Source: a virus (lineage: Duplodnaviria > Heunggongvirae > Uroviricota > Caudoviricetes). Taken from it: a stretch of DNA of 38,640 bases. The notes beneath the pieces are model-generated. The model worked only from the letters and a program-made list of their open reading frames with translations. It was not told the origin of the DNA and searched no databases. Numbering within the stretch: position 1 is the stretch's first letter; the number at the start of each line of letters is the position of its first letter. Where the stretch lies: the IMG/VR virus record IMGVR_UViG_2724679239_000008. One strand, given 5' to 3'. A program made the translations under genes and the position numbers. Below are positions 2,350 to 23,575 of this stretch, in pieces.

Positions 2350-5300
2350 TTAACATTCCTCCATCACGTCGCATATTTAACAGAGTGCCCTGCACTCGCT
2401 GATCAACCATTCCCATAAGTGTCCTAATTGCCTGAGGGCCAATCTCTCCATTCTGTCCGTCATTTTTGATAGTAATTTGATATACAGGAGAGTAATTAAT
2501 GTCTCCGCCTCCATTACCGTCTTTATTATTAATCGCCCTGACACCAAGAGAACCATCGGAAGTTCGTGTTAATGGCATAATAGCTTCCGGTCCAGCCTCA
2601 CCAAAAACACCAGCACCTTTTGCAAAAGCAAAAAATTGCGGGAAATCATAAATACCGTTTGAATATGTACTCAATGATGGAGACTCATAAATACCGCCCT
2701 TTGCATTAGGAATAAATTTACTAACAGCACTTCCGATAGTTCCTAAAATCCCCCCAGAAGAACTGTTGCTAATGCTGTCGAAAATCCCGGTAATTGAAGC
2801 CTTTAATGCTATTCTGCTAAGATCTGAAATCACGGAGGTAGCGAAAGAACGAAAATTTGCCTTGCCTGTCGTGACAAAATCACCAAGCGCATCTGTCATC
2901 CCATCAAACATCTGAGTCGTGGTTGATTTTATCTGCCCGCTGATATCCTTAGTGTTATCCAACCAGTTATTGAATCCTTGGGACGCCCCACTTACCCAGT
3001 CTCCTGCCTGAATATCGAGCTGCTCATTTTTCTGCCTGATAATTTCTTTTTCCCGCTCCACAGCATCATTCAGGGCCTGTATTTTTTCCTGAAAAACACG
3101 TTCAGACATTCCACGAGATTTATCCGCATAGTCACGTTCAAGTTGCAGACGCTGGTTGTTATATTCACGTTCAATCCGCAGTAACTCCTGCTGACGTTGC
3201 TGATTTTTATCGCCAAGTCCATAACCAGCAATCTGAATGTCATACCCCTGCTGATGATTATCAATAGAAGCCTGCAATGAACTACGCCATGCGGCTATTT
3301 CGGCTGACTCCTTGATTAGCCTGTTATTTTTTTCAATCGCAACATTTTTCTCCATCAACGCGGTTATTTCTTCCCGGTGTAAGAGAAGCGATTTCTGATC
3401 CTTAGTTAATTTTGATGTCGGACGAGATTCAAGATCGACTATTTGCTGGCGCCACTTAACCAGTTCCTGCTCAGAGGAACTTAATTTAACTGTCAATTCA
3501 GCTTGTGAACTTAGTAACGCATTCTGTTGATTCAGATGGTCAATCATTCGTTGGGCGGCATCATCTGAATAATTCCGTGTTTTTGGTGATTTTGGATCTT
3601 TATATAATTCATTAATACGAGAAATATTATTATTATATTGCTCTTCACTAATAGCCCCTGCATCCAAAAACTTCTTCTGCTGCCTGATTGCTTTACTTCT
3701 TTTTTCTGCATTAGTCAGATACTGTTGGTTAACACGATCGGCCTCCTGTTGAGTCTGAATTCGTTCTTGCTCAGCTTTACTTGCTGCAGAAATGGCCCCA
3801 GTAATATCTGCCTGAGCCGCCATAGTTAGCTGAAGAATGTTTAACTCTTGCTCAAGCTCTTTTCGACGTGAGGAAAAAACAGTTTTTCCACCGACAGCGT
3901 TATCAATCCAATCAAGCTCCTTGCGGATTTGAGTGATACGCTCATTTCCACCAGACACACGACCAACATCAAGCATTGCATCCCAAGCTTTTTTCGCTGT
4001 ACCAGCTAAACCATCCCAGGCTTTTTCAAGAAGCCCAAGATTTTGCTGGATTTCTGATGTACGCTGCTGTAAAGCCTGAGAATAAACGTCAGAAGCTACC
4101 CTAGCCGCCTCCTGCTGGTTCCCTTCATCCTGTAGCGCCTTAATCTGGTTATAAGTCGCCAGTGTCAGAAAATGGTACTGATCATTAAGTTTTGATATGG
4201 CACTGACAGGATCCTTTGCAATTTCATTGAAATCATTAACCAGTTGATCGGTCGATATTCCAGTTAATTCGCTCGTTTTTACTATCGCTGTCGTCACCTG
4301 CTCCAGCGAACTGCTCGCGACCTTTCCTGAACGTACAAGCTGGTTTAATACTGCCGCCGCAGCGCCAGTTGTCGAATCAGCAGCATCCCCGGCACGTTGA
4401 GCTATATCGGCTAATTGCCCGCTGGTTGTCCCCAACTGATTTCCGGTAAGAATAAGTGATTTATTAAATTCGTCATGCTCCTGAGAGCCTTTATAGTAAG
4501 CTAGCCCCAAGGCGCCAACGGCTGCTGCGGCCAGGGTAAAAGGATTAATTAATCCCAGCACATAAGAACCAACACCTTTGATCGCCGGACCAATCCCACC
4601 GAACATATCTTTTAGCTGGCCGCCCTGCTGCATTAACACCATAAATGGCGACTGACCAGTGGACAACCCAACAACAATATCCGTCATTTGTGCAGGCAAC
4701 ATGCGCATAGCAAAAGCCGTTTGTTTTGCTGACATTCCTGTTTTGCTGAGTTGCGATTGAGTAGCCTCAAGCTCACTCCGCATAGCACGGAGTTTTCCTG
4801 AAAGCTCCTCATACATTTCAGGAGAAAGCATCCCCTTGGCTTTTGCTTCGCTGAGTTGCTTTTGCTGCTCTGTCAGGCGGTTAAAAGCTGTTCCGACAGG
4901 ATCGAGTTGAGCAATCAGACGTTGCAAAGCAGCAACTTGTTCATCATGCGCTTTTGCAGCTTCCCGTTCTGCCTGAGCCTCTCCTGTTAGCTCTCGCCGC
5001 GTTTCCTGTATTTTTCGGCTGTAATTATCAAACTGAGAGCCATTTATTTTCCCGGAAGAAAGTGCAGCATTAAGTTCATCCTGCTGTTGATCAAGATTTC
5101 TTAGCGCCGCAGTCAGAGGGTCGATCTTGTCCAGCATTCTTTGAAAGGCCTGAGCCTGCGCTTCCTGCTGGGCGGCAGCAAGTTTTCCGGCCTTCTCGGC
5201 TTCTCTCTGCGCTTGCGCAACCCCGCTCAATTCCTCTGTAGTTTCATTAAGTTTACGGGCAAGAAATTCATATTCTTCTTTATCAATAAGCCCTTTATCG

Positions 5301-5551
5301 AAATATTTCTTTAATTCAGAATAGCGTCGACCGACAGTATCAATTGCGGCACCAACTGGATCAATAGCTGCTTTTAATTTTGCGAGCGCGTTCTTCTCAT
5401 CTTCTGTTGCCTTAGTCACTTTCCCTGCGCTATTTGCAGCAGTTTCCCCGGCCTGCGTCATCTTAACTAATGAGGAGGTCAGATTGTCAGCATTATTTTT
5501 TGCTCCAGTGCTATCAATAATTATTGCGAGACGCGAGGTTTGCTCTGCCAT
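2342..5551 (-). CDS. H: tail length tape measure protein
   Basis: 1069-aa ORF, long coiled-coil-rich N-terminal two thirds with repeated IDPVG/IDPLT segments, Gly-rich C-terminus; lies between G/T chaperones and M; AGGAG-like RBS (GGAG 10 nt upstream of ATG at 5551). Confidence 0.85.
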
Positions 5552-5571
5552 TTATTAAAACTCCTTACAAC

Positions 5572-5591
5572 AAAAAACCCACCGAAGTGGG
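5572..5591 (-). terminator. putative rho-independent terminator (minus strand) in the T-H gap
   Basis: minus-sense hairpin CCCAC-UUCG-GUGGG followed by UUUUUU GUUGU; plus strand shows AAAAAA CCCAC CGAA GTGGG. Confidence 0.45.
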
Positions 5592-5714
5592 TTTCAGGCG
5601 ACATAATAGTAGATATAGCGATTACGAAGCCACGCAATGCTTTTCTCCAGGAGCATCATCGATTTAATTAAAGACACTATCACATCTCTGTAACAGAGTG
5701 TACGTAATTAACAA

Positions 5715-5948
5715 CTACACACACTGCTCCTGAAAATACTGGTCATCCAGTGCAAAGATCACTGCTTCAAATTCATCGCGCTCAATCAATACCGGATGAG
5801 TGGCTAAATATTCATTTATCTCTGACAGAGATAAAGGCAAAGGCACCCCAGCCATTCCAGCATAACGCCGGGCACGGGATATCACCGAATAGGCGTACAA
5901 CAATTCCCTAATAACCGGGTCTATTTCTGGCTCCGGGAGCGGCGGCAA
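5715..5948 (-). CDS. tail assembly chaperone, T-like extension frame (expected to be expressed as a G-T fusion by -1 frameshift)
   Basis: 77-codon frame overlapping the 3' end of the G-like ORF in the -1 frame, no own ATG (track start is TTG); position between major tail and tape measure. Confidence 0.5.
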   Translation of the reverse strand: MPPLPEPEIDPVIRELLYAYSVISRARRYAGMAGVPLPLSLSEINEYLATHPVLIERDEFEAVIFALDDQYFQEQCV

Positions 5949-6472
5949 CCTGAGCTTTTCTCGTTTCCACCTTGCCTTTTCACCCTTTTCTCCCCCGAAC
6001 TCCGATATCCACCGCTGGGCGGCAATGGCTTTTTTATCGTATCCTGCTTTTGCTGCTCTTTTCCCTGGGCGATTCTGGCGGCTTCTGCAAGGATTTGCCA
6101 GTACAACTCTGGATTCTGCTTGAGCAGCGCAGCACCTCTTTCTGGTGTATATTCCAGCGCGACCTCAACACCATCTACCAACTCTCCAACCCCTTTCCAG
6201 TCTTTCAGCAGATAACGAGCGGCGTTATCAATGAGTAAATCATCAACAGAGTCCACCTCGACGACCTTTGCAATATCAAACGCCTTCGTTCCGACATGCA
6301 AACTGGCATCCATTTTCTCAATGTGGCGACGGATTAATGCATTACGGGAGCGATACTGATCATTATCACTGCTTGCCACCAACAGTTGTAACCCAGCAAT
6401 AGGTTCTAAGTCCTTCATTGGCGTAAACCAGCGTTCTCCACCGATGATAGTTTTCTGTTCAAGAATAAACAT
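5921..6472 (-). CDS. tail assembly chaperone (lambda gpG-like)
   Basis: 183-aa acidic ORF directly downstream of major tail gene and upstream of tape measure; -1 frame overlap with T-like ORF. Confidence 0.6.
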   Translation of the reverse strand: MFILEQKTIIGGERWFTPMKDLEPIAGLQLLVASSDNDQYRSRNALIRRHIEKMDASLHVGTKAFDIAKVVEVDSVDDLLIDNAARYLLKDWKGVGELVDGVEVALEYTPERGAALLKQNPELYWQILAEAARIAQGKEQQKQDTIKKPLPPSGGYRSSGEKRVKRQGGNEKSSGCRRSRSQK

Positions 6473-6532
6473 CTATAACCTCATTCAAAACGCCACCCTG
6501 TAGCGCAATACCACAGGGGGAATAACGGAAAA

Positions 6533-9073: not shown

Positions 9074-9298
9074 CTACTCCTGTGTTTTCCAGCCCAGCGC
9101 CTTCCAATTGTCAACTTCATCAGGATGAACATTAGCGATTGTTGGGGCACCGGGGAATATCTGATTCTCGGTCATCATAACTACCAACTTAATCGGTGTT
9201 TTTTGTGGTTCCCTGGTTTGCGCCGCCTTCCGCTCCGACACTGCATTTTTTTGCGCGGCATCACGCTGTGCTCTTTGATCTTTAGTCAATACAGCCAT
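9074..9298 (-). CDS. small hypothetical head-region protein
   Basis: 74-aa ORF between capsid terminator and connector gene. Confidence 0.4.
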   Translation of the reverse strand: MAVLTKDQRAQRDAAQKNAVSERKAAQTREPQKTPIKLVVMMTENQIFPGAPTIANVHPDEVDNWKALGWKTQE

Positions 9299-9310
9299 AT
9301 ACCCTCCATT

Positions 9311-9335
9311 AAAAAAGGGACCGAAGCCCCTTTTT
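9311..9335 (-). terminator. rho-independent terminator after major capsid gene
   Basis: minus-sense GGGGC-UUCG-GUCCC (UUCG tetraloop, one G-U pair) followed by UUUUUU. Confidence 0.55.
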
Positions 9336-9339
9336 GATT

Positions 9340-10479
9340 TTATCCAATAATCAGGCAGCTATGCGCAGGTTTCACTGACGAAACGCCCCATGCCAGCCCA
9401 ACTTCATAACGTACCTGACGATACTGACGATACAGTGCAATCTGAAATGTAATTCCCGAGATTGGGTCCGTAACATTCATTACATCATCAGCGCTATCGC
9501 CGCCCTCCGGCATTGCCGGGGTACGGGATGCCAACAGAAATGCGTTGCGATCGAACGCCATATTTGCAGTAAATGAGCCGACAACCGTGATTGCAGTATC
9601 ATCAGCCAGATCCTGACGTAGACCTGGTGCAGCAAGGGTAATCAGATTACTGGTTGCAGCAGCCACAACATACTGATTAGGATCGCCATCGAAAGTAACA
9701 ATCTGCCCTGCCGAAATATTCCCCGAACCAGTATCAATGGAAATAAGAACATCACCTTCTTTCTTCTCACCATTCACAAGATAACCAGTTGCAGTGGCTT
9801 TTGGTACTCGTTTTACACCTGCCGAACTGTGAATACTGAATCCCTCCAGGCGCCCCAACACCCCCTCGCGCAGTAGCTGCTCAGTGCCAGATTCATTCAC
9901 TTTAAACAATACGGACTGTTTTCCGCGCAAATTAGCAATAGCGGTGGAGCCAAGTACCATCTGTAAATCGGTTGTCGGTGCCCCGTTATCCTCCAGAATC
10001 TGACGAGCCAGAGCCGCATCAGAAAGATCATCTTTAACACCAAACGGCGTTGTCCCCGCGGTCCCAACAGCACGAGAAGCACCGAAATACAGTGCGCCAA
10101 GATCAGCCTCAACCTCGTTTGCAAGTGCTCGAAAAGCTTGCTTGAACTGATCAGCCAGAATGGTGTTGTAAGTCCCGGAAGGACCAAGCGCCAGTTGTTC
10201 TTCACCATTCCATTTAACTGGCGCCATTTTAGATTTAGTAATTTTTACATCAACAGTGCCAATATTTTGATCTCCAGTATTCGGAGCTGACGGGCCCGGT
10301 ACGATATCTTCAGTTTTCGCATCAGGCGCAACTGGCGCGGTTACCGTTTGATCTTTTGCTGCAGCGTCAGCTTTTGCGTTTTTTGCTACCGCAGGAATAA
10401 AACCTACCTGCTCACGGGATACAACATCCAGGGCGGTGTAAATAGTCGGGATCAACCCGGTCAGGGTATTTCCAGCCAT
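9340..10479 (-). CDS. major capsid protein
   Basis: large ORF downstream of scaffold gene; start chosen at ATG 10479 (MAGNTLTGL...) with AAGGA upstream rather than the RBS-less track start at 10572. Confidence 0.7.
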   Translation of the reverse strand: MAGNTLTGLIPTIYTALDVVSREQVGFIPAVAKNAKADAAAKDQTVTAPVAPDAKTEDIVPGPSAPNTGDQNIGTVDVKITKSKMAPVKWNGEEQLALGPSGTYNTILADQFKQAFRALANEVEADLGALYFGASRAVGTAGTTPFGVKDDLSDAALARQILEDNGAPTTDLQMVLGSTAIANLRGKQSVLFKVNESGTEQLLREGVLGRLEGFSIHSSAGVKRVPKATATGYLVNGEKKEGDVLISIDTGSGNISAGQIVTFDGDPNQYVVAAATSNLITLAAPGLRQDLADDTAITVVGSFTANMAFDRNAFLLASRTPAMPEGGDSADDVMNVTDPISGITFQIALYRQYRQVRYEVGLAWGVSSVKPAHSCLIIG

Positions 10480-10578
10480 AATTAAATATTCCTTAAAATT
10501 TTGCGTAATTGTAAATGAATTGAGTAGTGAGCTATCCAGCCCTGACGCCAGTCCCCATCCAGGAACTGGCAAAATGTG

Positions 10579-11343
10579 TTAGTCAACGATAGTGATACCG
10601 TCTTTCAGTGCGTTTTGCTTACCTGCAACATCCAGTGCATCAAAAGCTGATCGCTTCATCGTTTTCTGACCAATATCATGCTGTGTCGGACGGGAGCCGC
10701 CACCATTGTTGCCACTGGCTTTCAGGATGTAGTCTTTCTGAGGGTAATTTTCGACGAGGAACTCCAGCGCCTCATCAAACTGCGCCAGTTCGCCTGGCTT
10801 CGTGCGGGAGTAAATTTTGTTGCCGGAAGCGTCATAAGCAACGATCTTCCCTTCTTCCACTTTGAATGACTGTCCGAAGCGGGCCTGTAATAAATCTGCC
10901 GGGATCGCAATTTTATCGGCAATATATTTTGAACCAGCAAAACTACCGCCAATCATGGAATCGTAAAGCTGCTTCTCCAGCATCTGAGAGCGTTGCTTTT
11001 CTTCGTCTAATTGCTGCTGAAAATTTTTCGTAATTTCTGCTTTAACCTGGTCAACCTGTCCCGCATCAATCAGTTTTTTCTGGTCAATTTTGGACAGCAT
11101 TTCCAGCGCCTCAATCGCCTTTTTCGGGTCATCGATGGCAGCGAACCTGGCAAGTTTTTCCTCTGCGGCCTCTTTAGCCAGACGATGATTTTTCGCCTCG
11201 CCATTAAGTTCTGTAATTTTTCTGGCTGCCAGCGGTGCATCGAAGCCGATTTCTTTACCATCATCATGCACATAAACTGGCAGACCAGCAGTGTCGATTT
11301 CTGCGTATTTTTTTCCGTTAATCTCTACTGTTTTCAGTTTCAT
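10579..11343 (-). CDS. capsid scaffolding protein
   Basis: charged, coiled-coil-rich ORF upstream of capsid gene; start at ATG 11343 (MKLKTVEINGKKY) with AGGT 6 nt upstream. Confidence 0.6.
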   Translation of the reverse strand: MKLKTVEINGKKYAEIDTAGLPVYVHDDGKEIGFDAPLAARKITELNGEAKNHRLAKEAAEEKLARFAAIDDPKKAIEALEMLSKIDQKKLIDAGQVDQVKAEITKNFQQQLDEEKQRSQMLEKQLYDSMIGGSFAGSKYIADKIAIPADLLQARFGQSFKVEEGKIVAYDASGNKIYSRTKPGELAQFDEALEFLVENYPQKDYILKASGNNGGGSRPTQHDIGQKTMKRSAFDALDVAGKQNALKDGITIVD

Positions 11344-11403
11344 ATTAATACCTGATTTAAGTCTTCCGACTGTTACACTGCTCACTATCCAGATTGCAGC
11401 AAT

Positions 11404-11427
11404 AAAAAAGGCCACCCGAAGGTAGCC
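11404..11427 (-). terminator. rho-independent terminator after head morphogenesis gene
   Basis: minus-sense GGCUACC-UUCG-GGUGGCC followed by UUUUUUAUU. Confidence 0.55.
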
Positions 11428-11447
11428 TGTTGTAATAAATAATTAAT

Positions 11448-12563
11448 TTAAATCCCGGCTTTTCTGAATGCCTGAGCATCACGCTCACGGAGTTGTCCCA
11501 GCGTCAACCATTCACCTTTATCGGTGTAAAATTCATCTGGTGACATACCTCCATCACGAATCAGTTTTGCCCGTGTTTCTCCCACTATTTGTTTTTGCCT
11601 GGCATAAGACTGGCGCAAAAACCATTCCTTGTAAGTCGTATCTCCGGCTACAACCCCATCCATACTTGCCCTCTCGGCAGGAGAAACATCCCGAACATCA
11701 ATCCCCAGTTCCTTCGCAGATTTCAGAATAAACGTTTCTGTTGAACGGCAGCAGAAATGAATTTTTCCCGGCCCCTGTAAATAAGGCACTTTGTGACCAA
11801 TAGGTTTATTATCCAGCGTATATTTGAGGCGATCCCTGATTCGACACTGTGGTGTAGTACGATTATCAAGTGTGGATAACCATTGTTTGCCCTTTATCAA
11901 ATCATTGTTTGCCATGGCGAAACTCTCACGGGCAGTAGCAGCAAGATGCCCAACCGCTGTTTTTGCAATACTGGCCGCATTAGCTCGACTCATCTGCAAT
12001 GCACCATCCTGAAACCCCTTACTGACATGCCCACGAATTTTTCTTGCGATCTGCTCATTGGTATCACCCAGCAAAAAACCCTGACGTACCGTATTTGTAA
12101 TACGCCTGAGCCGATCTGCTTCAAGGTCTGAGGCCCATTCGTTGAGTAGTCTTCCCTGAAATGGACGCGCCATTGCAGCGGCATAAAGGGTGTCAGGTGA
12201 GATACCAATCAGAGGATGAATATCCGCCACAAAATCAGGAAGCAAAGAGTCAAACAGATTTAACTGATAGCTAGCCTCATATATCGCCAGCTCGTTTAAC
12301 TCTCCTGAGAGACGAGCAAACATACTGTTAATAGCAGTGCGGTTAACTTCCCTCACACTCACCAGAAGTGATTCCAGACGCGTAACGGTGAAACTCCCCG
12401 GCCCCAAATTATCCAGAGCCACCAGCAAACGAGCTGTAAGCTCTGCGTCGCTGTCGTTCAGCGTTTTCACCATTCTGGCCGCTACACCTGTGCTATAGCG
12501 AGATATCCAGATAGCATGGGCAATCGATTCATCACGCAGCCGTTCATTCACTGTTTGCATCAT
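11448..12563 (-). CDS. head morphogenesis protein (SPP1 gp7 / Mu F-like minor head protein)
   Basis: 371-aa ORF directly downstream of portal with family-typical conserved region (TTPQCRIRD, GPGKIHFCCRS); overlaps portal by 20 nt. Confidence 0.7.
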   Translation of the reverse strand: MMQTVNERLRDESIAHAIWISRYSTGVAARMVKTLNDSDAELTARLLVALDNLGPGSFTVTRLESLLVSVREVNRTAINSMFARLSGELNELAIYEASYQLNLFDSLLPDFVADIHPLIGISPDTLYAAAMARPFQGRLLNEWASDLEADRLRRITNTVRQGFLLGDTNEQIARKIRGHVSKGFQDGALQMSRANAASIAKTAVGHLAATARESFAMANNDLIKGKQWLSTLDNRTTPQCRIRDRLKYTLDNKPIGHKVPYLQGPGKIHFCCRSTETFILKSAKELGIDVRDVSPAERASMDGVVAGDTTYKEWFLRQSYARQKQIVGETRAKLIRDGGMSPDEFYTDKGEWLTLGQLRERDAQAFRKAGI

Positions 12564-13950
12564 TGATTCCCATCAGCGTTACGCCCTGATTTTTTAATTC
12601 ATCGATCACTTCCTCTGGACGGGAATCCTGATCGATAAATTTCAACGCCTGCAACACCCGAACCGCATCAATCTGACGTATATCACCACCCTGACGCAAT
12701 GACTGAACAGCCAGCGCGGAGGATGAGTCAAACACCTGGGCAGATACATCCAGCTCAGTGCGCACATCCACATTGCCGCCGCAACTCTCTCCGATCCATT
12801 CCGCCATTATCTGGAGAATATTATCGAGGGCATCTTCGAGGGAGTTCGCCATTGTATAAAGCGGCGAGTTTTCCTGCATCCGCTCTTCATTGGTCTGATC
12901 AACAGATTTGGTGGATGTATTTTCAGCCCGCAGAAGTTTAGCGCCGGCATGACGCATCTGATTTTCCAGTTTCTCCAGAGATGTTTCGCCAGACTCTATC
13001 GCGGCACCGCTATGCTCAACATATTCAAGGCCATTTTTTGCCCTGTCATCAAAAATCGTCGCGGTGGATGCGCCAACCGTCAGTTCTTCATTCCTGTCCA
13101 GACCGTAGGCCACCAGCAATGGGACGCGGGCAACATGCAAAATATTGTCCTGCTCACTCTGGCTTTGCCAGTGCTTGATATTCAGCAAACCAAGATTAAG
13201 CAATGGCGGTGTACCACGCATAAACCCTGTTTTCTTCGTATACAGTGTTACCAGAGGAATATCATCACGACTGGTATTCCATGACTCGTGAAGCGTCCAG
13301 ACAGATTCGCCATTAGTACCTTCACTGCGCCGATAAATTTCAACGCGACGGGGCATAATATGGCGGATCTGCTCCACCTTCTTCTGCCAGAAATCATCAC
13401 CATCAATAATGATGACCTCTTTTATACGCAAATCAGTGAGAACAACTTTCCCTTTTTCAACTTTCGATTTCCATCCAATAACCTGGCGTGGATTCAGCAT
13501 CGTAACGTACGGGCGACCACCGGCCGCGTTTTCATCGGCTTTTGTCCGAATCTCTTTCATATCCGTTCGTGGATAGTCTACCAGCGCATGCGCCACACCA
13601 TACTGAAATGCGAGACTGAAAAATTGCTGCGCCCACACATCCAGTCGGCTCCCCTCCATATCGATATTTTCTGCATATTCCCTGATTTTTTCCGGCGTCT
13701 CTTCACTCAGCACTGTCGGCTCTGCAAATATGCGCCCAATATTTTGCTTAATACTTTCTTCATACACAGGAAGTAGCGTAGCCACAGACAAGCGTTTTTT
13801 ATATGTGTCTTCATCTTCATTAGGCCATTTAGGGAGATAATTTTCCCCCTGCCTACGCATTTCAAGCGTGCCACCCATCAGTGCATCGTTAATATCCCAC
13901 GCCTCCAGCATATCGTTATAGTCGAGGTTGGGTGTTGATATATCAGCCAT
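12544..13950 (-). CDS. portal protein
   Basis: 468-aa ORF immediately downstream of terminase large subunit, acidic C-terminus. Confidence 0.8.
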   Translation of the reverse strand: MADISTPNLDYNDMLEAWDINDALMGGTLEMRRQGENYLPKWPNEDEDTYKKRLSVATLLPVYEESIKQNIGRIFAEPTVLSEETPEKIREYAENIDMEGSRLDVWAQQFFSLAFQYGVAHALVDYPRTDMKEIRTKADENAAGGRPYVTMLNPRQVIGWKSKVEKGKVVLTDLRIKEVIIIDGDDFWQKKVEQIRHIMPRRVEIYRRSEGTNGESVWTLHESWNTSRDDIPLVTLYTKKTGFMRGTPPLLNLGLLNIKHWQSQSEQDNILHVARVPLLVAYGLDRNEELTVGASTATIFDDRAKNGLEYVEHSGAAIESGETSLEKLENQMRHAGAKLLRAENTSTKSVDQTNEERMQENSPLYTMANSLEDALDNILQIMAEWIGESCGGNVDVRTELDVSAQVFDSSSALAVQSLRQGGDIRQIDAVRVLQALKFIDQDSRPEEVIDELKNQGVTLMGINDANSE

Positions 13951-13952
13951 AA

Positions 13953-16271
13953 TTAAATCCGAAGTGATGTAACTCTTCCGGTCGGTTTGACAATAGGGAA
14001 TTGCTTAACAATAAAATAACCTCCGGCATCATTCGGGTGATCGTTGCCAGATTTTTTATCAGGCTCACCCTTATCATCCCAAACCTGTTGCTCCAGAGAT
14101 TCGGCATATACCGGACAACGCTTCACATTAACTTTATAGCGACGCTCACCATTGGCATTGCAGAACATTGCATTCATTGAGTTAACGCGATCTTTTACTG
14201 GCGGGTTCGAACTGTTTACAACAACGTTAAAACCAGCCTGTTTAAGCTGAGCAATATCCGTCGCACTTGCGTTATTTGATTTTCTGGAATCCCCGGATGC
14301 ATCAGGATAAATATAAATTTCCCTTACTTTCCGATAATCATTCCCGTCATATAACCAGAAGCGCTCTTTAATAATACGGATCATATCTGGTGTATCGTAA
14401 GCGTTAATGATTTCAGTTACTGCGCATGGAAGCCCAAAACGTAACACATGAACGACTCCAGCCATTTTTCCGACGTTAAAATCCATCCCGATATATATCG
14501 GCTCACCTGGCTGTTCCTCTTCTTCGCAATTATTCAGTTTTCGGTCAAACTGATGGTAAACAGTACCACTTGTCAGGTTAGTAAACTGTCCTCGAAGATA
14601 GGCTTTAATCAGCTCTGGAGGATATGACTCAAGGAGCGAGGGAATGTAATCTGCTGGCAAATTCTTTTCATTATCGAAAGTAGATGCCTGTACCAGACCA
14701 TACAGTGAGACCAGCTCTGTTTTTTCACGTACGGCTTTAACAAACTGCTCGTAGACAAATTTGAATCCTTCCGGCGTGGTTGTAACGTCAATACCGTTGC
14801 GAAGTCCATCAACCTTATAACGCATACGCGCAATTATCTTGCGCCACGCTGTTCTGGCTTTTTCCTTCGGCAAAATGTCCAGTTCATCCACCAGCGCATT
14901 ACCAATTTTGAAACCGACGATCGTTTGCGGCTTCTCCATCGATCTGCAGATAGTGGTTCCCCGATACTGACGTCCGTAATAAAAATGAACTTCTTTATTT
15001 CCCTCGTTAATTTTTACATTTAGCCCCCAGTCGGCAGCAACTTCTTCAACTGTGGGATAAAAAATATCGCGAATTTGTGGATATGTAGGCGCAAAATATC
15101 CCTGATTGATACCCGGATGCTCCCAAATCCCCTTACATATGCCACCACACCCAACCCATGTTTTACCGCTATTGTGATGAATCGTCCCATCAGCAGTTAC
15201 GTAGCAGTTATTATCCAATACCTGGAGGTCATAATATGGCTCGGCCTTCTGCAACAGTGTTACACTCAATATGTTGCAGGTTTCGATTAAGGAGTTTGGT
15301 TTTGACGCCTCTTGACCGTTTAATTTGTGATTTAGCACATCCAGAACGTACCGTTTCAGAAGTTGCTTCTCTGGCAGGTTGTGACCGCAGTCATGTTTAT
15401 CGTTGCATATCTCGTTATGGGTTAACGCTGAAACAACACCAGAAGCCTGTCCCTCGAGAAAGTGCGAAGGACAGAATCCTCGCTCTTGCTGATGGTCACC
15501 GTACGTCGGCAGAGATCGCGGCGGAAGTTGGTTGCACAGAAAAGCACGTTCAAAATATTCTCCGAATTCACAACGCCAACCGGCTACCCTGTGGCGCCAG
15601 AAAGGGTGAGTTGAACCCCAGCTTTCGTGGTGGTCGAATTGTTGATCTGGATGGATATGCCGTTGTTCCAGCGCCTGCTGACCATCCATATATGCGCAGA
15701 ACAGGCATGATGTTTGAACATCGTTTGATCGCTGAAAAGAAGCTGGGGCGTTATCTGCTGCCATCAGAAGTTGTTGACCATATCGACGGGCTTCATCTGC
15801 ATAACACCCCAAGTAATCTGCGAGTTTTTGATTCAAACGTGGATCACCTGCGTGCAACGATTTCGGGACGGCGGCCAAACTGGTCAGAAGAAGGTTTTGC
15901 GAAGATGCAAATACCTTCACCGATTCGTCCAGACTATCCACAGATCGATAGCTACCGTCAGCGCAAAAAACGCGGTGATGTCCGCTTGCTACAAATTCTC
16001 CTCGCTGCGTCACTACTCGGTATAGATTCGCCACACCTTTTGGGTACGCACCACCACTTAGCGAAAGCTCAAATCGATTATTCTCATCCGACCAAGATAA
16101 AACGCGCATTGGTCGAGTTATTTCCTGAATGGGTAGAATCCCATTCTCTGTAACCACAGGCGTACTTCCCCTCAGGCAACCAAAACCAGCAACATAGGCT
16201 TTAAATTTATGAGGCATAGAAAGAAATCGCGCCTGAGGCACATTAAGCGTCGGAGAGATCATCTTCATCAC
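13953..16271 (-). CDS. terminase large subunit precursor containing an intein in the Walker A P-loop
   Basis: 772-aa ORF; N-extein ends KFKAYVAGFG, C-extein starts SGKTWVG (reconstitutes a P-loop); C-extein about 400 aa with nuclease-type C-terminus; coupled to small subunit and portal. Confidence 0.85.
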   Translation of the reverse strand: MMKMISPTLNVPQARFLSMPHKFKAYVAGFGCLRGSTPVVTENGILPIQEITRPMRVLSWSDENNRFELSLSGGAYPKGVANLYRVVTQRGEFVASGHHRVFCADGSYRSVDSLDESVKVFASSQNLLLTSLAAVPKSLHAGDPRLNQKLADYLGCYADEARRYGQQLLMAADNAPASFQRSNDVQTSCLFCAYMDGQQALEQRHIHPDQQFDHHESWGSTHPFWRHRVAGWRCEFGEYFERAFLCNQLPPRSLPTYGDHQQERGFCPSHFLEGQASGVVSALTHNEICNDKHDCGHNLPEKQLLKRYVLDVLNHKLNGQEASKPNSLIETCNILSVTLLQKAEPYYDLQVLDNNCYVTADGTIHHNSGKTWVGCGGICKGIWEHPGINQGYFAPTYPQIRDIFYPTVEEVAADWGLNVKINEGNKEVHFYYGRQYRGTTICRSMEKPQTIVGFKIGNALVDELDILPKEKARTAWRKIIARMRYKVDGLRNGIDVTTTPEGFKFVYEQFVKAVREKTELVSLYGLVQASTFDNEKNLPADYIPSLLESYPPELIKAYLRGQFTNLTSGTVYHQFDRKLNNCEEEEQPGEPIYIGMDFNVGKMAGVVHVLRFGLPCAVTEIINAYDTPDMIRIIKERFWLYDGNDYRKVREIYIYPDASGDSRKSNNASATDIAQLKQAGFNVVVNSSNPPVKDRVNSMNAMFCNANGERRYKVNVKRCPVYAESLEQQVWDDKGEPDKKSGNDHPNDAGGYFIVKQFPIVKPTGRVTSLRI
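15171..16178 (-). other. intein (336 codons) within terminase large subunit
   Basis: starts with Cys (CLRGSTPVVTENGILPIQEI), block B-like GEFVASGHHRVF, ends YDLQVLDNNCYVTADGTIHHN followed by Ser; codon boundaries verified on the sequence (gca at 16176-16178 = Cys, att at 15171-15173 = Asn). Confidence 0.75.
15236..16153 (+). CDS. HNH endonuclease (HNH_3-type with N-terminal HTH segments), encoded antisense inside the intein
   Basis: plus-strand ORF; ATG 15236 preceded by GGAGG (15224-15228); translation verified: GYAVVPAPADHPYMRRTGMMFEHRLIAEKKLGRYLLPSEVVDHIDGLHLHNTPSNLRVF; the track ORF starts further upstream at ATG 15158 without RBS. Confidence 0.65.
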   Translation: MARPSATVLHSICCRFRLRSLVLTPLDRLICDLAHPERTVSEVASLAGCDRSHVYRCISRYGLTLKQHQKPVPRESAKDRILALADGHRTSAEIAAEVGCTEKHVQNILRIHNANRLPCGARKGELNPSFRGGRIVDLDGYAVVPAPADHPYMRRTGMMFEHRLIAEKKLGRYLLPSEVVDHIDGLHLHNTPSNLRVFDSNVDHLRATISGRRPNWSEEGFAKMQIPSPIRPDYPQIDSYRQRKKRGDVRLLQILLAASLLGIDSPHLLGTHHHLAKAQIDYSHPTKIKRALVELFPEWVESHSL

Positions 16272-17341: not shown

Positions 17342-17593
17342 TTAGTCCTGATTTTTATCCACCCTGAGTAATGCACGCAGAGCAAAGGCATCCCCTTTTC
17401 TGGCAAGCTTAAACAATGCCGCCCGTAGCTCGGCTTCACCTTTCGCTCTGCCCTTACGGATGGACGCATAAAAATTTGTCATTGCTTCCCGATTTTCTTT
17501 CAGTCTGTTCAGATCAACATCCAGAACGTCAGCGATTTGTTGTGCAGTCATCCGGCACGCTGCCAGAGACTCGACTTTCGAATACGGAATCAT
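17342..17593 (-). CDS. hypothetical small DNA-binding protein
   Basis: 83-aa ORF with GGGGGTGA RBS, HTH-like CRMTAQQIADVLDVDLNRL. Confidence 0.45.
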   Translation of the reverse strand: MIPYSKVESLAACRMTAQQIADVLDVDLNRLKENREAMTNFYASIRKGRAKGEAELRAALFKLARKGDAFALRALLRVDKNQD

Positions 17594-17972
17594 TTATCAC
17601 CCCCATTGATATGCAGGGTGTCTTCTTCCTGTATTTTTCGTGAAGGATTTTTACTGCAGCGTTGTTCCAGGTGACCTGATGGTGAATGCGTTTATGGCTG
17701 GCGCCCATCAGTGAGATTTTTACGCACGACGGCGCATACATGACGGAGTAAAAACTTTTAACGTAGGTGCCGGAATCCAGATACAGTTCGGTCATTCCGC
17801 CGCTGTTTTTCTGCGTTTGCTTCTGCCCTAACTGGACAGCGCCAATCGTCAAAAACAATTCACCACGACGACCGAGATTCGTGTATGTATTCACATCCTC
17901 GTTAATACGCCCCATAAATGAGAATGGTCGGTCAACAGAACAAATAAAGCTGTTCATTGCTTTGCGTTTCAC
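17529..17972 (-). CDS. hypothetical protein; probable C-terminal part of a gene split at a G9 tract
   Basis: 147-aa frame starting at GTG with no RBS, continuous with upstream ORF after a 1-nt frame change. Confidence 0.4.
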   Translation of the reverse strand: MKRKAMNSFICSVDRPFSFMGRINEDVNTYTNLGRRGELFLTIGAVQLGQKQTQKNSGGMTELYLDSGTYVKSFYSVMYAPSCVKISLMGASHKRIHHQVTWNNAAVKILHEKYRKKTPCISMGVINDSVFESRVSGSVPDDCTTNR

Positions 17973-17994
17973 CCATGCAGCATGACCACCATTA

Positions 17995-18462
17995 TCACCA
18001 AGAAAGTCCCCCCCCCTGCGCCATAGCGATGGAAAGCGCAGGAATTGATTCGTAATACGCCAGCATTTCAGAAAGGATCGAGTCCAGTTTCCTTATCGGA
18101 AAATAAGCCTGGTCATAGTTGCGATCTACCCGAAACTGAAACTCGTGATAGTCGTCATCAAGCTGGATGTAGTATTTACACCCAACCTTTTTTGCCAGGC
18201 CCAGACAGGCATTCCTGGCATAAAAGATTGAACGTCGATCGCCAAAGTTGTCGGCTTCATCAAAACGACTGGCGATATCGGCTTTGGAAAACACCAGCAC
18301 CTGTTCACCAAATTCTGCTACGTACTGATGCCGGGTTTTATCTTCATCATCAACAACGATAAAAATTTTCCCGGTATAGCCAGCACGACGCAACGTCCGG
18401 TAAGTCAGAACTTTGTCCGGTCGCCCGTGAGTCAGAATAAAGGCGCAAAAATCATCACGCAT
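17995..18462 (-). CDS. hypothetical protein with DxD-like motifs; N-terminal part of split gene
   Basis: start at ATG 18462 (MRDDFCAF) with GAGGAGGA RBS; IVVDDED and QLDDDY motifs; ends three codons after a G9 run. Confidence 0.5.
   Translation of the reverse strand: MRDDFCAFILTHGRPDKVLTYRTLRRAGYTGKIFIVVDDEDKTRHQYVAEFGEQVLVFSKADIASRFDEADNFGDRRSIFYARNACLGLAKKVGCKYYIQLDDDYHEFQFRVDRNYDQAYFPIRKLDSILSEMLAYYESIPALSIAMAQGGGLSW
18008..18016. repeat. homopolymer tract (C9 on plus, G9 in coding sense)
   Basis: counted directly in sequence; lies at the junction of the two ORF fragments. Confidence 0.9.
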
Positions 18463-18463
18463 A

Positions 18464-19243
18464 TTACTCCTCCTCGCCATGCATGATCTCCACCATGCGC
18501 TGCGTCATCCTGACAAACCCATTTTCAATTGCCTGCTGATAATCAATGATCACCAGAGCCGATTCCTCAAAAAAGCTCTGAATTTCAGCGGGGGCGTGAG
18601 CGTAATAGTCCGCGATTCTGCTGAAATTAAACACCGTGTGACGTTCTGCCGCGCACAGAAGGAATTTCTCAATATCAGGATCAAGGGACACCGAACGTAT
18701 CCGGCTGATCAGCTCCTGAGTTTTCGTATCGTCGTACAGTTCACAGATATCCGGTTTATCGCCTGACGGCTCATAAACAGGCGTATCAATTTTCGTCGTA
18801 TACGGCTCCTCCTCATTTCCTGTACCAGGCAAAATATCCGTCAACAGTTCATCAATTTCTGTCGGGCTGAAGCCTGTCAGGGAGACATCAAAATCAGCAT
18901 TAATTAGGTCCGACAGCTCCATCCGTAACAGATCTTCATCCCAGCCAGCATTCATCGGCAGGCGATTATCTGCCAGACGGTACGCCTTTTTCTGATCATC
19001 CGTCAGACCAGACAGAACGATGACCGGAACGAAATCCATTTTGAGCACTTCAGCCGCCATAACGCGACCGTGACCCGCAATAACTTCGCCCTTTTCATCA
19101 ATCAGCACCGGATTAGTCCAGCCAAATTGCTTAATGCTTTCTACCAGTTGCGTCACCTGCTCAGGGCTGTGTGTCCTGGCATTGTGTGCATACAGAGACA
19201 GCTCTTGTAACGGGCGATAGACGATCTTCAATTTCTCGCTCAT
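18464..19243 (-). CDS. ParB-like nuclease domain protein
   Basis: 259-aa ORF with ParB N-terminal-type motifs (YAHNARTH, VIAGHGRVMAA); GAGG RBS. Confidence 0.7.
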   Translation of the reverse strand: MSEKLKIVYRPLQELSLYAHNARTHSPEQVTQLVESIKQFGWTNPVLIDEKGEVIAGHGRVMAAEVLKMDFVPVIVLSGLTDDQKKAYRLADNRLPMNAGWDEDLLRMELSDLINADFDVSLTGFSPTEIDELLTDILPGTGNEEEPYTTKIDTPVYEPSGDKPDICELYDDTKTQELISRIRSVSLDPDIEKFLLCAAERHTVFNFSRIADYYAHAPAEIQSFFEESALVIIDYQQAIENGFVRMTQRMVEIMHGEEE

Positions 19244-21004: not shown

Positions 21005-21031
21005 AATAAAAAACCCCGGCAAATGCCGAGG
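21005..21031 (-). terminator. putative rho-independent terminator in late leader
   Basis: minus-sense CCUCGG-CAUUUG-CCGGGG followed by UUUUUUAUUU. Confidence 0.4.
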
Positions 21032-21252
21032 TCAGTTAATCGTTGCCGCTGTTAGTGCCGCGGTGCACTATCTCTTTATCAGGCTACTTACGCGTTAAAA
21101 CGGGTGCCAACCGTAACTCAGTGATGCTTTACGCTTCCTCTCCTTCACTACGTCGCCATGGGAGCCCGACCAGATTAACGCTGTCGTCACGTTGCCAAAA
21201 TATGGCATCCAATGAATTCTTTTTATTTAGCTATTTCATTTTTCTATCCGTC

Positions 21253-21281
21253 AGAAACAACAAAACCCGCTCGGTGGCGGG
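21253..21281 (-). terminator. tR'-like terminator downstream of Q
   Basis: minus-sense CCCGC-CACCGA-GCGGG followed by UUUUGUUGUUUCU, about 100 nt downstream of Q stop. Confidence 0.5.
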
Positions 21282-21380
21282 TTCTATTAAAGTTCAATTG
21301 CACTTGGTTCGCCTCGCGATACAGCTTTGCGAAGCGTAGCTGAATTGAATCAGTTTATTGGCAAAAATGCAATAACTTTT

Positions 21381-21923
21381 TTATTGGCTTTCTCCGCATA
21401 ACGCTAATTTCATTGGTATATACAGAATGTGCTCAGCAACACTCAACCATGCGTCAATGCGATTTCTGCAAGTTTTCAAGCTCCAGCCAGGGCGATACTC
21501 ATTTAACTGTTGTGCCATTTTCAGCTTACTCATCCCCCGTCCCTCATACCGTTGTCGAAGGACGCTAATCAATCCCGGATGTTCTGTCAGCACCTCACTT
21601 ATAACCCGATCAATACATAACGCCTCTGCATCAGTACAATGCGCCAGCCAGCTCTTTTGCTTCCCGTTGATCATCTCACGTAAAAATGCTTCCAGCTCCG
21701 GCTTCTCTATTCCCGCTTTTTTAATCCTGCGCAGGGCTTCATTGACGGCTGTTTTCGTCAATTTTTTGGATGCCAGCAACTGGTTAAACATATTTCCCAT
21801 CTTACCGCCGCCAATATACGACCAGCGCCCCCACATGCGCAGTTTTCCCTGAATCCAGACACTTTCCAGCGTGGTGAGACGAAGGTGTTCCCCGCTTTTG
21901 CCTGTATTTGTTGGGTAAATCAT
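21381..21923 (-). CDS. Q: late antiterminator Q-like protein
   Basis: 180-aa ORF directly upstream of late leader and lysis genes; Q-family size and position. Confidence 0.65.
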   Translation of the reverse strand: MIYPTNTGKSGEHLRLTTLESVWIQGKLRMWGRWSYIGGGKMGNMFNQLLASKKLTKTAVNEALRRIKKAGIEKPELEAFLREMINGKQKSWLAHCTDAEALCIDRVISEVLTEHPGLISVLRQRYEGRGMSKLKMAQQLNEYRPGWSLKTCRNRIDAWLSVAEHILYIPMKLALCGESQ

Positions 21924-23294: not shown

Positions 23295-23450
23295 TTACTC
23301 CTCAGGTTCGTAAGCTGTGAAGACAGCGACCTCCGTCTGACCGGTTCGGATTCGTACCTCGCAGAGGTCTTTCCTCGTTACCAGTGCCGTAACAATGACG
23401 GTTAAACAGATGACGATCAGGGCGACTAACATCGCCTTTTGCTGCTTCAT
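23295..23450 (-). CDS. hok: Hok-family type I toxin
   Basis: MKQQKAMLVALIVICLTVIVTALVTRKDLCEVRIRTGQTEVAVFTAYEPEE matches Hok/Gef family pattern; AGGAG RBS 9 nt upstream. Confidence 0.8.
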   Translation of the reverse strand: MKQQKAMLVALIVICLTVIVTALVTRKDLCEVRIRTGQTEVAVFTAYEPEE

Positions 23451-23507
23451 AGCCTGCTTCTCCTTGCCTTTCGGCACGTAAGAGGCTAACCTACATGTGT
23501 TCAGCAT
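23295..23507 (-). CDS. mok: Mok-like in-frame N-terminally extended reading frame
   Basis: in-frame ATG 19 codons upstream (MLNTCRLASYVPKGKEKQA...), same arrangement I recall for mokC/hokC. Confidence 0.45.
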   Translation of the reverse strand: MLNTCRLASYVPKGKEKQAMKQQKAMLVALIVICLTVIVTALVTRKDLCEVRIRTGQTEVAVFTAYEPEE

Positions 23508-23575
23508 GGATTGAGCCTCAGATTAATGTTAAGCGTCCTGCAAGACGCGTAATGTTAACTGGGGCTTTTCTCTAT
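23500..23575 (+). ncRNA. sok: possible Sok-like antisense RNA (inferred, boundaries approximate)
   Basis: plus-strand TTGCCT (23464-23469), 17-nt spacer, TAACCT (23487-23492) opposite the mok start; imperfect hairpin 23529-23556; by analogy with hok/sok loci. Confidence 0.25.

What the first reader, a model, noticed from the sequence alone, without database searches (positions are those of the whole stretch)
9300..11430. Intrinsic terminators inside the head operon flanking the scaffold and capsid genes
Hairpin plus U-run terminators with UUCG tetraloops occur after the head morphogenesis gene (11404..11427) and after the major capsid gene (9311..9335), bracketing scaffold and capsid. This is consistent with partial termination setting the high stoichiometry of scaffold and capsid relative to downstream connector and tail genes.
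Basis: partly seen in the sequence, partly recalled or inferred. Interest (0 to 1): 0.25.

Follow-up and report, generated by a model that had tools for sequence, protein, structure and literature searches.

The report
Terminator hairpins bracketing scaffold and capsid
Two real, evolutionarily conserved terminator-type RNA hairpins bracket the scaffold and capsid genes of this Rac-like E. coli prophage, a feature already annotated in related phages, but they sit in an operon that is read by terminator-resistant polymerase, so they probably do not set protein ratios by stopping transcription; the more unusual thing in the interval is a set of conserved GGAU-loop hairpins in front of both genes.

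Summary
Both hairpins exist exactly where stated, on the minus (coding) strand: T1 (11428..11403) after the MuF-like head-morphogenesis gene and T2 (9335..9311) after the P22-type coat gene, each a C(UUCG)G hairpin plus U-run. They are far beyond chance and are conserved across about 130 related loci, T1 with many compensatory stem changes. The same arrangement is already annotated in HK639, HK97, a Mannheimia phage and (as a stem-loop) P22, and is visible in lambda, so it is a new member of a known kind. T1 lies upstream of scaffold and coat with no promoter behind it, so termination there would lower their expression. The operon also lies downstream of a Q-type antiterminator. Most likely these are conditional barriers to non-antiterminated transcription whose hairpins persist in the mRNA; T2 may add a small step-down. 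Inside the same interval I found something not described in Rfam: 2-3 hairpins with invariant GGAU/GGAA tetraloops and covarying stems in the scaffold leader, and two more before coat. They are conserved from E. coli to Caulobacter and Synechococcus phages and track the DUF6651 scaffold family. They look like protein operators; the ligand is unknown.

The parts
11448..12563 (-). MuF-like head-morphogenesis (minor head) gene, upstream of T1
   Evidence: PF04233 and PHROG 241
11403..11428 (-). T1: intrinsic-terminator hairpin AGGCUACC-UUCG-GGUGGCCU plus U6
   Evidence: Conserved with compensatory changes. Its homologue is annotated as 'terminator' in HK639.
11377..11400 (-). Scaffold-leader hairpin 1: 5-bp outer stem, internal loop, 2-bp inner stem, GGAU loop; starts 2-4 nt after the U-run of T1
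   Evidence: covariation in alignments A2 and A3
11360..11371 (-). Scaffold-leader hairpin 2: AGUC-GGAA-GACU
10579..11343 (-). Scaffolding protein gene (DUF6651 family)
   Evidence: PF20356 E=1.8e-61 and PHROG 206 head scaffolding
10546..10571 (-). Coat-leader hairpin alpha: 10-bp stem with GGAU tetraloop
   Evidence: 9 of 10 pairs show changes on both sides; the same structure is predicted by RNAalifold
10529..10542 (-). Coat-leader hairpin beta: GGGCU-GGAU-AGCUC
10489..10494 (-). Coat Shine-Dalgarno AAGGAA in an A/U- and C-rich unstructured leader
   Evidence: read; conserved in alignment A1
9340..10479 (-). Major capsid (P22-coat family) gene
   Evidence: PF11651 and PHROG 283
9311..9335 (-). 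T2: AAAAA-GGGGC-UUCG-GUCCC-UUUUUU; weaker terminator. In this lineage it also reads as a terminator on the plus strand.
   Evidence: The same hairpin lies after P22 gene 5 and is annotated there as a stem_loop.
9074..9298 (-). 74-aa gene (PHROG 1514) with strong SD GGAGGG 3 nt after the U-run of T2
5568..5595 (-). T3: third C(UUCG)G terminator, between the tail chaperone genes and the tape-measure gene
   Evidence: retained in the K-12 Rac prophage
21381..21923 (-). Q-family late antiterminator gene that governs the operon
   Evidence: PF06530 and PF06576
21012..21033 (-). Strong terminator in the Q-holin leader (tR'-like); a second lies at 21287..21260

Best explanation
T1 and T2 are genuine, anciently conserved intrinsic terminators embedded in a lambdoid, Q-antiterminated late operon. 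RNA polymerase that has not been modified by Q is stopped before it reaches the two most efficiently translated head genes (T1) and before the connector/tail genes (T2, T3). Such polymerase could come from prophage-state leak past tR', from genes inserted just upstream of T1, or from spurious promoters. During lytic growth Q-modified polymerase reads through, so the terminators do not set the scaffold/coat excess. That excess must come from translation signals and mRNA stability in the two long leaders. After read-through the hairpins still form in the mRNA, where T2 (3' side) and T1 plus the leader hairpins (5' side) can delimit and stabilise a scaffold-coat segment. Shown: anatomy, non-randomness, conservation and covariation, the Q context, and absence of a detectable internal promoter. 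Inferred: read-through by Q, the barrier role, and any stabilising role.
For: Terminator anatomy and energies. T1 occurs in 52/55 distinct spacers with many different but always paired stems and a U6-7 run. Conservation of the U-run argues for termination competence rather than a mere stability hairpin. T1 keeps a fixed distance to the scaffold ATG (53-91 nt), while its distance to the MuF stop varies from -2 to 770 nt. Extra genes are always inserted upstream of T1, and 7 spacers carry tandem terminators. [quoted passage not shown] No promoter-like site follows T1, and there is no room for one in pAEv1818. Late genes are otherwise packed (gaps of at most 5 nt); the only long gaps are those holding these elements. 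The same layout is annotated in Q-dependent or lambdoid phages: HK97, with putative terminators before the protease/major-head pair, after major head, and before and after major tail; HK639; P22 stem-loop. Lambda has hairpin+U elements on both sides of E.
Against: There are no transcript data for this prophage or any close relative, so read-through efficiency is unknown. The Q assignment rests on Pfam matches and gene order; no qut site or PR' was defined, and the promoter scan found no strong match there. A barrier role does not by itself explain why the elements bracket precisely the abundant-protein genes. It also does not explain why T1 is fixed to the first leader hairpin. Some distant relatives have the leader hairpins without a recognisable T1 (Erwinia Gungnir39; Salicola and Synechococcus phages).
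Confidence: 0.55

Rival explanations
1. One reading: both terminators are leaky attenuators whose partial termination sets the excess of scaffold and coat over downstream connector and tail proteins.
For: T2 sits directly after coat, or after the extra small gene that follows coat in phiES15 and pAEv1818. It is intrinsically weak (5 G-C pairs, -8.5 kcal/mol core) and in many relatives has an interrupted U-run (UUUGUUUUU), as expected of a leaky site. T7 Tphi directly after gene 10 lowers downstream RNA, and weak terminators tune phage operons.
Against: T1 is upstream of the genes it is supposed to favour, with no promoter behind it. Q-type antitermination is encoded upstream. The abundant tail tube gene lies downstream of T2. 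In lambda, HK97 and P22, which have the same hairpins, late transcription is Q-antiterminated (established knowledge).
Confidence: 0.2
2. The hairpins act after transcription only. They are processing and stability elements: a 3' stem-loop blocks exonucleases and a 5' stem-loop blocks RNase E entry. Together they make the scaffold-coat mRNA segment longer-lived than its neighbours, and their terminator look is secondary.
For: Bracketing of the abundant-protein genes on both sides is conserved. An A/U-rich single-stranded stretch precedes T1. Extra-stable C(UUCG)G loops are present. T1 is tied to the scaffold leader rather than to the upstream gene. The T2 hairpin persists even where the U-run decays (HK639, Synechococcus phage).
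Against: The U-run of T1 is conserved as strictly as the stem, which a pure stability element would not need. No processing sites are known. This partly overlaps the best explanation rather than excluding it.
Confidence: 0.2
3. They are passive leftovers: terminators brought in with inserted genes (morons), or conserved junction sequences that persist because recombination between phage modules happens there.
For: The MuF-T1 spacer is an insertion hotspot with extra ORFs and tandem terminators in several relatives. The T2 sequence GGGGC-NNCG-GCCCC is nearly invariant even where flanking genes are unrelected at sequence level: P22 coat is 21% identical and the downstream gene is not alignable.
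Against: T1 is present whether or not an insert is present, and it shows compensatory evolution, which indicates selection on the structure. T2 has different but paired stems in Acinetobacter, Pseudomonas, Caulobacter and Mannheimia phages.
Confidence: 0.05

Closest known systems
Putative terminators flanking the head and tail subunit genes of phage HK97 (GenBank NC_002167 annotation) and the terminator annotated in HK639 (NC_016158, 4901..4922)
   Same: A hairpin+U-run sits before the protease/major-head pair and directly after the major head gene, inside a lambdoid late operon. The HK639 site is the direct homologue of T1, in front of a homologous scaffold gene.
   Different: HK97 has a protease and a delta-domain capsid protein instead of a separate DUF6651 scaffold, its stems are unrelated in sequence, and it has no GGAU leader hairpins. 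None of these annotated sites has a function shown in the records I could read.
Stem-loop after the coat gene of P22 (NC_002371, 6102..6119, annotated 'similar in location to stem-loops in phage HK97 and phage lambda') and the hairpin after lambda gene E
   Same: Same position, and in P22 the same sequence GGGGC-UGCG-GCCCC followed by UUUCUUUAUGGAG. Lambda has AUGGCCC-UUCG-GGGCCAU plus a U-rich tail before the SD of FI.
   Different: P22 has no gap and no terminator upstream of its scaffold gene 8 (a 13-nt spacer). The P22 scaffold is not DUF6651.
T7 terminator Tphi after major capsid gene 10
   Same: A terminator immediately after the capsid gene with read-through into the tail genes; RNA drops downstream.
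   Different: T7 uses its own polymerase, has many internal promoters upstream of gene 10, and has no antiterminator. Here a single Q-dependent transcript is expected, and there is a second terminator upstream of the favoured genes.
CsrA/RsmA-binding hairpins (for example the repeats of CsrB), compared with the GGAU leader hairpins
   Same: Several short GC-stem hairpins present GGA(U)G in the loop, clustered in a 5' leader, with a GGA-containing SD nearby.
   Different: The base before GGA is A in 14 of 22 CsrB sites but in 1 of 198 phage hairpins (C or U instead), and A at -2 is also absent. The motif also occurs in a Synechococcus phage and a Caulobacter phage and follows the scaffold family rather than the host.
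Translational operators of phage structural genes (MS2 coat-replicase hairpin) and the post-transcriptional autoregulation of the P22 scaffolding protein
   Same: These are small hairpins with invariant loops and free-to-vary stems next to, or containing, the ribosome-binding site of an assembly gene. In P22, free scaffold lowers its own synthesis post-transcriptionally (my knowledge of Casjens and co-workers, 1985; not verified here).
   Different: No binding protein is identified. There are several copies per leader, also in front of coat. The DUF6651 scaffold is unrelated to P22 gp8, and its predicted fold matches no solved structure, so nothing from the fold search points to an RNA-binding fold.

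Membership tests
Intrinsic (Rho-independent) terminator | G+C-rich hairpin of about 5-10 bp with a short loop | tested here: met
   T1 has 8 bp (5 G-C) with a UUCG loop and folds at -13.8 kcal/mol. T2 has 5 G/C-type pairs (one G.U) plus an A/U extension and folds at -12.7 kcal/mol.
Intrinsic (Rho-independent) terminator | Run of U immediately 3' of the stem | tested here: met
   T1 UUUUUUAUU; T2 UUUUUUAAU. At least 5-8 T in the 9 nt after the stem in nearly all relatives.
Intrinsic (Rho-independent) terminator | Co-oriented with, and just downstream of, a stop codon in non-coding DNA | tested here: met
   T1 starts 20 nt after the MuF stop and T2 4 nt after the coat stop, both on the coding strand.
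Intrinsic (Rho-independent) terminator | Structure maintained in evolution | tested here: met
   T1 has 3 of 7 pairs with double changes within one sub-lineage and about 10 different stems overall. The T2 stem is mostly invariant but is replaced by other paired stems in distant phages.
Intrinsic (Rho-independent) terminator | Releases transcripts at the U-run | not testable with these tools
   No transcript 3'-end data are available. The K-12 Rac prophage retains only the T3 region.
Lambdoid Q-antiterminated late operon | Q-family antiterminator gene directly upstream of the late genes, same strand | tested here: met
   The ORF at 21381..21923 matches PF06530 (Phage_antitermQ, 29.3 bits, cut-off 26) and PF06576.
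Lambdoid Q-antiterminated late operon | Late promoter with nearby terminator(s) between Q and the lysis genes | tested here: inconclusive
   Strong terminators lie at 21287..21260 and 21033..21012 in a 473-nt non-coding stretch ahead of the holin. No strong sigma-70 match was called, and only a weak TTGCAT-17-TTCAAT was seen by eye.
Lambdoid Q-antiterminated late operon | Q-modified polymerase reads through downstream terminators | not testable with these tools
   Established for lambda, 82 and 21 Q (my knowledge); not measured for this Q.
T7 Tphi-type attenuator after the capsid gene | Terminator immediately after the capsid gene | tested here: met
   T2.
T7 Tphi-type attenuator after the capsid gene | Polymerase is not antiterminated, so the site is partly effective during late growth | tested here: not met
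   A Q antiterminator is encoded upstream.
CsrA-binding site (for the GGAU leader hairpins) | GGA in the loop of a short hairpin, in several copies per leader | tested here: met
CsrA-binding site (for the GGAU leader hairpins) | A at -1 or -2 of GGA (AGGA / ANGGA) | tested here: not met
   A at -1 in 1 of 198 hairpins and at -2 in 1 of 198, against A at -1 in 14 of 22 sites of E. coli CsrB.
Known RNA family (Rfam 15) | Match to a curated covariance model | tested here: not met
   No family reaches threshold in the window except RalA and sok elsewhere. Only chance-level hits (E > 1) fall in the two leaders and in the HK639 leader.

The most novel reading that the evidence does not exclude
T1 and T2 are the outer borders of a conserved post-transcriptional control cassette. 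The 2-3 GGAU/GGAA-tetraloop hairpins in the scaffold leader and the two in the coat leader would be operators for a phage-encoded RNA-binding factor, most economically the DUF6651 scaffolding protein itself. That factor would feed back on translation or stability of scaffold and coat mRNA and so set their stoichiometry. This would be an undescribed cis-regulatory RNA motif shared by phages of Gamma- and Alphaproteobacteria and cyanobacteria.
Probability: 0.3. Interest if true: 0.65.

Novelty: new member of a known kind. Interest (0 to 1): 0.38.

Why it matters
As terminators these elements are ordinary: they add one more example to a pattern that phage annotators have marked for over twenty years. 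What is useful here is the correction. In a Q-dependent operon, a terminator upstream of the abundant genes cannot be what raises their level, so the control must lie in the leaders. Those leaders carry a strongly covarying, deeply conserved hairpin motif that is absent from Rfam and follows one scaffold family. If it is an operator, it gives a concrete, testable handle on how scaffold and coat output is matched during capsid assembly. That question has stayed mechanistically open since autoregulation of the P22 scaffold was described.

Tried and rejected
- **Rfam.** A gathering search of the whole window and E-value searches of 9200..11500 and of the HK639 leader gave nothing for the terminators or leaders.
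- **Internal promoter behind T1.** None was called. The scan only covers sigma-70 consensus.
- **CsrA as ligand of the GGAU hairpins.** I compared them with the real CsrB sequence of MG1655. The 3' half (GGAUG) matches, but the preceding A is systematically absent, and the motif occurs in hosts as distant as cyanobacteria, so I rejected this as the leading idea.
- **K-12 datasets.** The K-12 Rac prophage keeps only window 6374..4617 (the T3 region), not T1 or T2. A literature search on ydaY/ynaK gave nothing relevant.
- **Scaffold fold.** The single-sequence model was poor (pLDDT 50). A 26-sequence alignment gave pLDDT 77, but Foldseek against the PDB found nothing below E = 1, so the fold search gives no support for RNA binding.
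- **Distant scaffold relatives.** The search for related loci with a scaffold alignment returned only close relatives. Distant ones were reached with tblastn on the phage collection instead.
- **Papers.** Those on HK639 antitermination and the P22 sequence correction are not held. Searches for CsrA plus prophage, and for stem-loops after capsid genes, gave nothing specific.
- **DNA-level operator reading of the hairpins.** Rejected, because the many G.U pairs would be A.C mismatches on the other strand, and hits are on the coding strand only.
Full report
**What the window is.**
The 38.6-kb window is a complete Rac-family lambdoid prophage of E. coli. The region around the finding is 99.6% identical to strain MEI003, and the head module occurs at about 89% identity in roughly 800 of 5,426 complete E. 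coli genomes. The window carries recE, recT, an integrase, RalA and sok.

The late genes run on the minus strand in this order: Q-type antiterminator (21381..21923), a 473-nt leader with strong terminators, holin and lysis genes, small and large terminase, portal (12544..13950), MuF-like head-morphogenesis gene (11448..12563), DUF6651 scaffold (10579..11343), P22-type coat (9340..10479), a 74-aa gene, head-tail adaptors, tail tube, chaperones and tape measure.

- On the coding strand, T1 reads AGGCUACC-UUCG-GGUGGCCU followed by UUUUUAUU (11428..11403).
- T2 reads AAAAA-GGGGC-UUCG-GUCCC-UUUUUU (9335..9311).
- Both loops are the extra-stable C(UUCG)G type.
- T1 folds at -13.8 kcal/mol (z = -4.35) and T2 at -12.7 (z = -3.81).
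- The consensus scan ranks T1 first in the first 20 kb.
- With a stricter definition of my own the window holds 34 nested hits (about 14 distinct sites) against 2.4 +/- 1.7 in dinucleotide shuffles.
- T2 is the weakest of these, partly because this lineage has a G.U where almost all relatives have G-C.
- A third C(UUCG)G terminator (T3, 5595..5574) precedes the tape-measure gene.

From terminase to tail the genes overlap or are at most 5 nt apart, except at five places: MuF-scaffold (104 nt), scaffold-coat (99 nt), coat-next gene (41 nt), the gaps on either side of the tail tube gene (26 and 60 nt), and chaperone-tape measure (163 nt). The terminators therefore occupy nearly all the non-coding space that exists.

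**Conservation.**
I collected about 130 loci with a related coat or scaffold gene from phage records, viral contigs and one genome per bacterial species, spanning Escherichia to Photorhabdus, Yersinia, Gilliamella and Tolumonas.

*T1.* A T1-type terminator is present in 52 of 55 distinct MuF-scaffold spacers. About ten different stems occur (GGCUACC/GGUGGCC, GGCUGCC/GGCGGCC, GGUCGC/GCGGCC, GGGUCAC/GUGACC, AACCUGC/GCAGGUU and others), always followed by six or seven U. Within one sub-lineage, 3 of 7 pairs show changes on both sides. This is selection on a structure plus a U-run, the signature of an intrinsic terminator.

*T2.* The hairpin is present in 55 of 57 distinct post-coat sequences. It is almost always GGGGC-UUCG-GCCCC, with a U-rich tail of variable quality that ends 3-12 nt before the SD of the next gene. 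In more distant phages (Acinetobacter TCUAN1, Pseudomonas PS-1, Caulobacter DMCA, Mannheimia 1152AP2, Salicola CGphi29) both positions are again occupied by hairpin+U elements with unrelated stems.

In Cronobacter phiES15 and Aeromonas pAEv1818 the GGGGC-UUCG-GCCCC hairpin lies after an extra small gene that follows coat (annotated as an Ig-domain protein in phiES15). If that gene encodes a high-copy decoration protein, which I infer but did not test, the hairpin marks the end of the block of abundant head proteins.

**This is a known kind of feature.**
- The GenBank record of HK639 marks the T1 homologue as 'terminator'.
- The HK97 record marks putative terminators before the protease/major-head pair, after the major head gene, and before and after the major tail subunit.
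- The Mannheimia phage record marks three terminators around its scaffold and coat genes.
- The P22 record marks a stem-loop right after coat gene 5, 'similar in location to stem-loops in phage HK97 and phage lambda'. Its sequence, GGGGCUGCGGCCCCUUUCUUUAUGGAG, is essentially T2, although the two coat proteins share only 21% identity over 160 residues and the downstream genes do not align.
- Lambda has AUGGCCC-UUCG-GGGCCAU after gene E and a hairpin+U7 between D and E.

The bracket is real and conserved, and a leaky terminator after a capsid gene has a well-studied precedent in T7 Tphi. Three things argue against termination as the device that sets stoichiometry here.

1. T1 is upstream of scaffold and coat. 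No promoter-like site lies between T1 and either gene, the conserved positions there fit RNA hairpins rather than promoter hexamers, and in pAEv1818 the U-run of T1 runs directly into the annotated scaffold start codon. Every scaffold and coat transcript must therefore pass T1. Termination at T1 would give these genes less RNA than terminase, portal and MuF, which are needed in far smaller amounts.
2. The operon lies behind a Q-family antiterminator with the typical terminator-containing leader. Lambdoid late operons are switched on by Q antitermination, and Q-modified polymerase is known to ignore downstream terminators (established knowledge, not tested here).
3. The abundant tail tube gene is downstream of T2.

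**Most likely mechanism.**
I therefore read T1, T2 and T3 as conditional barriers.
- They stop polymerase that has not been modified by Q.
- They are read through in lytic growth.

Several details fit this reading. The U-run is conserved as strictly as the stem. T1 keeps a fixed distance to the scaffold start (53-91 nt), whereas its distance to the MuF stop ranges from -2 to 770 nt. Extra genes are always inserted upstream of T1, and seven spacers carry two terminators in tandem. Because the hairpins still form in the read-through RNA, they may also protect the ends of a scaffold-coat mRNA segment. I cannot separate this from the barrier role without transcript data, and a small residual step-down at the weak T2 is possible. 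My confidence in this reading is about 0.55.

**What else is in the interval.**
- Two to four nucleotides after the U-run of T1 comes hairpin 1 (11400..11377): a five-pair outer stem, an internal loop, two pairs and a GGAU loop.
- Hairpin 2 follows (11371..11360): AGUC-GGAA-GACU.
- The scaffold-coat gap holds hairpin alpha (10571..10546, ten pairs, GGAU loop) and hairpin beta (10542..10529, GGGCU-GGAU-AGCUC). An unstructured A/U- and C-rich stretch and the SD AAGGAA follow.

*Covariation.* Across 29 distinct coat leaders, 96% of cells pair and 11 of 15 pairs show changes on both sides. None of the 500 shuffles reaches the observed values, and the shifted-register controls fall to 35-49% of cells paired. 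RNAalifold predicts the same structure on its own. The scaffold leaders behave the same way in both of their architectures: two hairpins in the E. coli/Klebsiella type, and three in the HK639 type, where the third, GGCC-GGAA-GGCY, abuts the SD.

*Loop, strand and position.* The loop is invariant, GGAU in about 80% and GGAA in about 20% of cases, closed mostly by C-G. The many G.U pairs place the structure on the sense RNA. In 47 diverse loci, 89 of 140 coding-strand hits fall in the two leaders, against 17 hits on the whole opposite strand.

*Depth of conservation.* The motif reaches well beyond Enterobacterales: Acinetobacter, Pseudomonas, Moraxella, Mannheimia, Salicola, Caulobacter and Synechococcus phages all have it in front of their scaffold gene, and several also before coat. 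All of these scaffolds are DUF6651. The two phages that share portal and MuF but have a different scaffold (phiES15, pAEv1818) lack the motif, as do P22, lambda and HK97. In several phages the last hairpin abuts or contains the ribosome-binding site.

*Candidate ligands.* Nothing in Rfam matches. The hairpins resemble CsrA sites in presenting GGAUG in a loop. However, the A that precedes GGA in 14 of 22 sites of E. coli CsrB occurs in only 1 of 198 phage hairpins, and the host range argues against a host factor. A phage-encoded ligand is the better guess, and the scaffold itself is the only gene I found to co-occur with the motif. That evidence is circumstantial: the predicted scaffold structure (pLDDT 77) matches no solved fold.

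**Verdict.**
- The terminators are real, conserved and already known in kind.
- The stoichiometry-by-termination reading fails for T1 and is unproven for T2.
- The leader hairpins are the part of this interval that deserves an experiment.

Noticed in passing
window 11400..11360 and 10571..10529 (minus strand); also L216, L219-L224: Hairpins with invariant GGAU/GGAA tetraloops and covarying GC-rich stems lie in the 5' leaders of the scaffold gene (2-3 copies) and the coat gene (2 copies). They are not in Rfam. They are conserved from E. coli to Caulobacter and Synechococcus phages and are found only with DUF6651-type scaffolds.
   Followed up: yes
window 15158..16153 (+) inside the 772-aa ORF 13953..16271 (-): An ORF with HTH and HNH_3 domains lies on the opposite strand between the small and large terminase genes. 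The terminase domains start only at residue 368 of the long minus-strand ORF. PGAP calls the terminase in MEI003 'partial', and relatives without the insert have a large terminase of about 434 aa. It looks like a free-standing homing-type endonuclease insertion.
   Followed up: partly
window 17529..18480 and 18464..19243 (minus strand): Between the lysis and terminase genes lie a ParB_N-domain gene (like ynaK of Rac) and a TET-associated glycosyltransferase (PF20691). The glycosyltransferase is split over two ORFs (N-terminal part 17995..18480, C-terminal part 17529..17972), which suggests a frameshifted DNA-modification gene.
   Followed up: no
window 5595..5568 (minus strand); MG1655 about 1426400: A third C(UUCG)G terminator sits in a 163-nt gap before the tape-measure gene. 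It is the only one of the three retained in the defective Rac prophage of K-12, upstream of ynaA, with a one-base loop insertion. Published K-12 3'-end maps could therefore test it.
   Followed up: partly
L002 2608..3143, L004 2633..3059, L071, L111 and others: The spacer between MuF and T1 is an insertion hotspot. Extra small ORFs (morons) of up to about 750 nt sit there, several with their own terminator, giving two tandem terminators before the scaffold leader.
   Followed up: partly
L212 (P22) 6102..6119 compared with window 9330..9317: The hairpin after the coat gene has the same sequence (GGGGC-NNCG-GCCCC plus a U-rich tail and GGAG) in P22 and in this phage family, although the coat proteins are 21% identical and the next genes are unrelated. 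This is either deep conservation or convergence.
   Followed up: partly
window 9311..9335, both strands: In this lineage only, an A5 run precedes the T2 stem, so the element also reads as a terminator on the plus strand (the scan reports it there). The stem also carries a G.U that weakens it relative to almost all relatives.
   Followed up: partly
window 6473..6532 (minus strand): The 60-nt gap after the tail tube gene holds a hairpin (CCCUGUGG-UAUUGCG-CUACAGGG) with a poor U-run. HK97 and HK639 have annotated terminators on both sides of their major tail genes.
   Followed up: no
window 36906..37084 (-) and 23445..23620 (-): Rfam gathering-level matches to the RalA antitoxin RNA and to sok. 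Together with recE/recT and the integrase, these mark the window as a full-length Rac-type prophage.
   Followed up: no
L006 2706..2717, L104 1581..1592 and other HK639-type loci: A further hairpin, GCGU-GGAU-GCGU, recurs inside the 3' end of the MuF coding region in the HK639-type lineage. It may be an additional copy of the leader motif.
   Followed up: no
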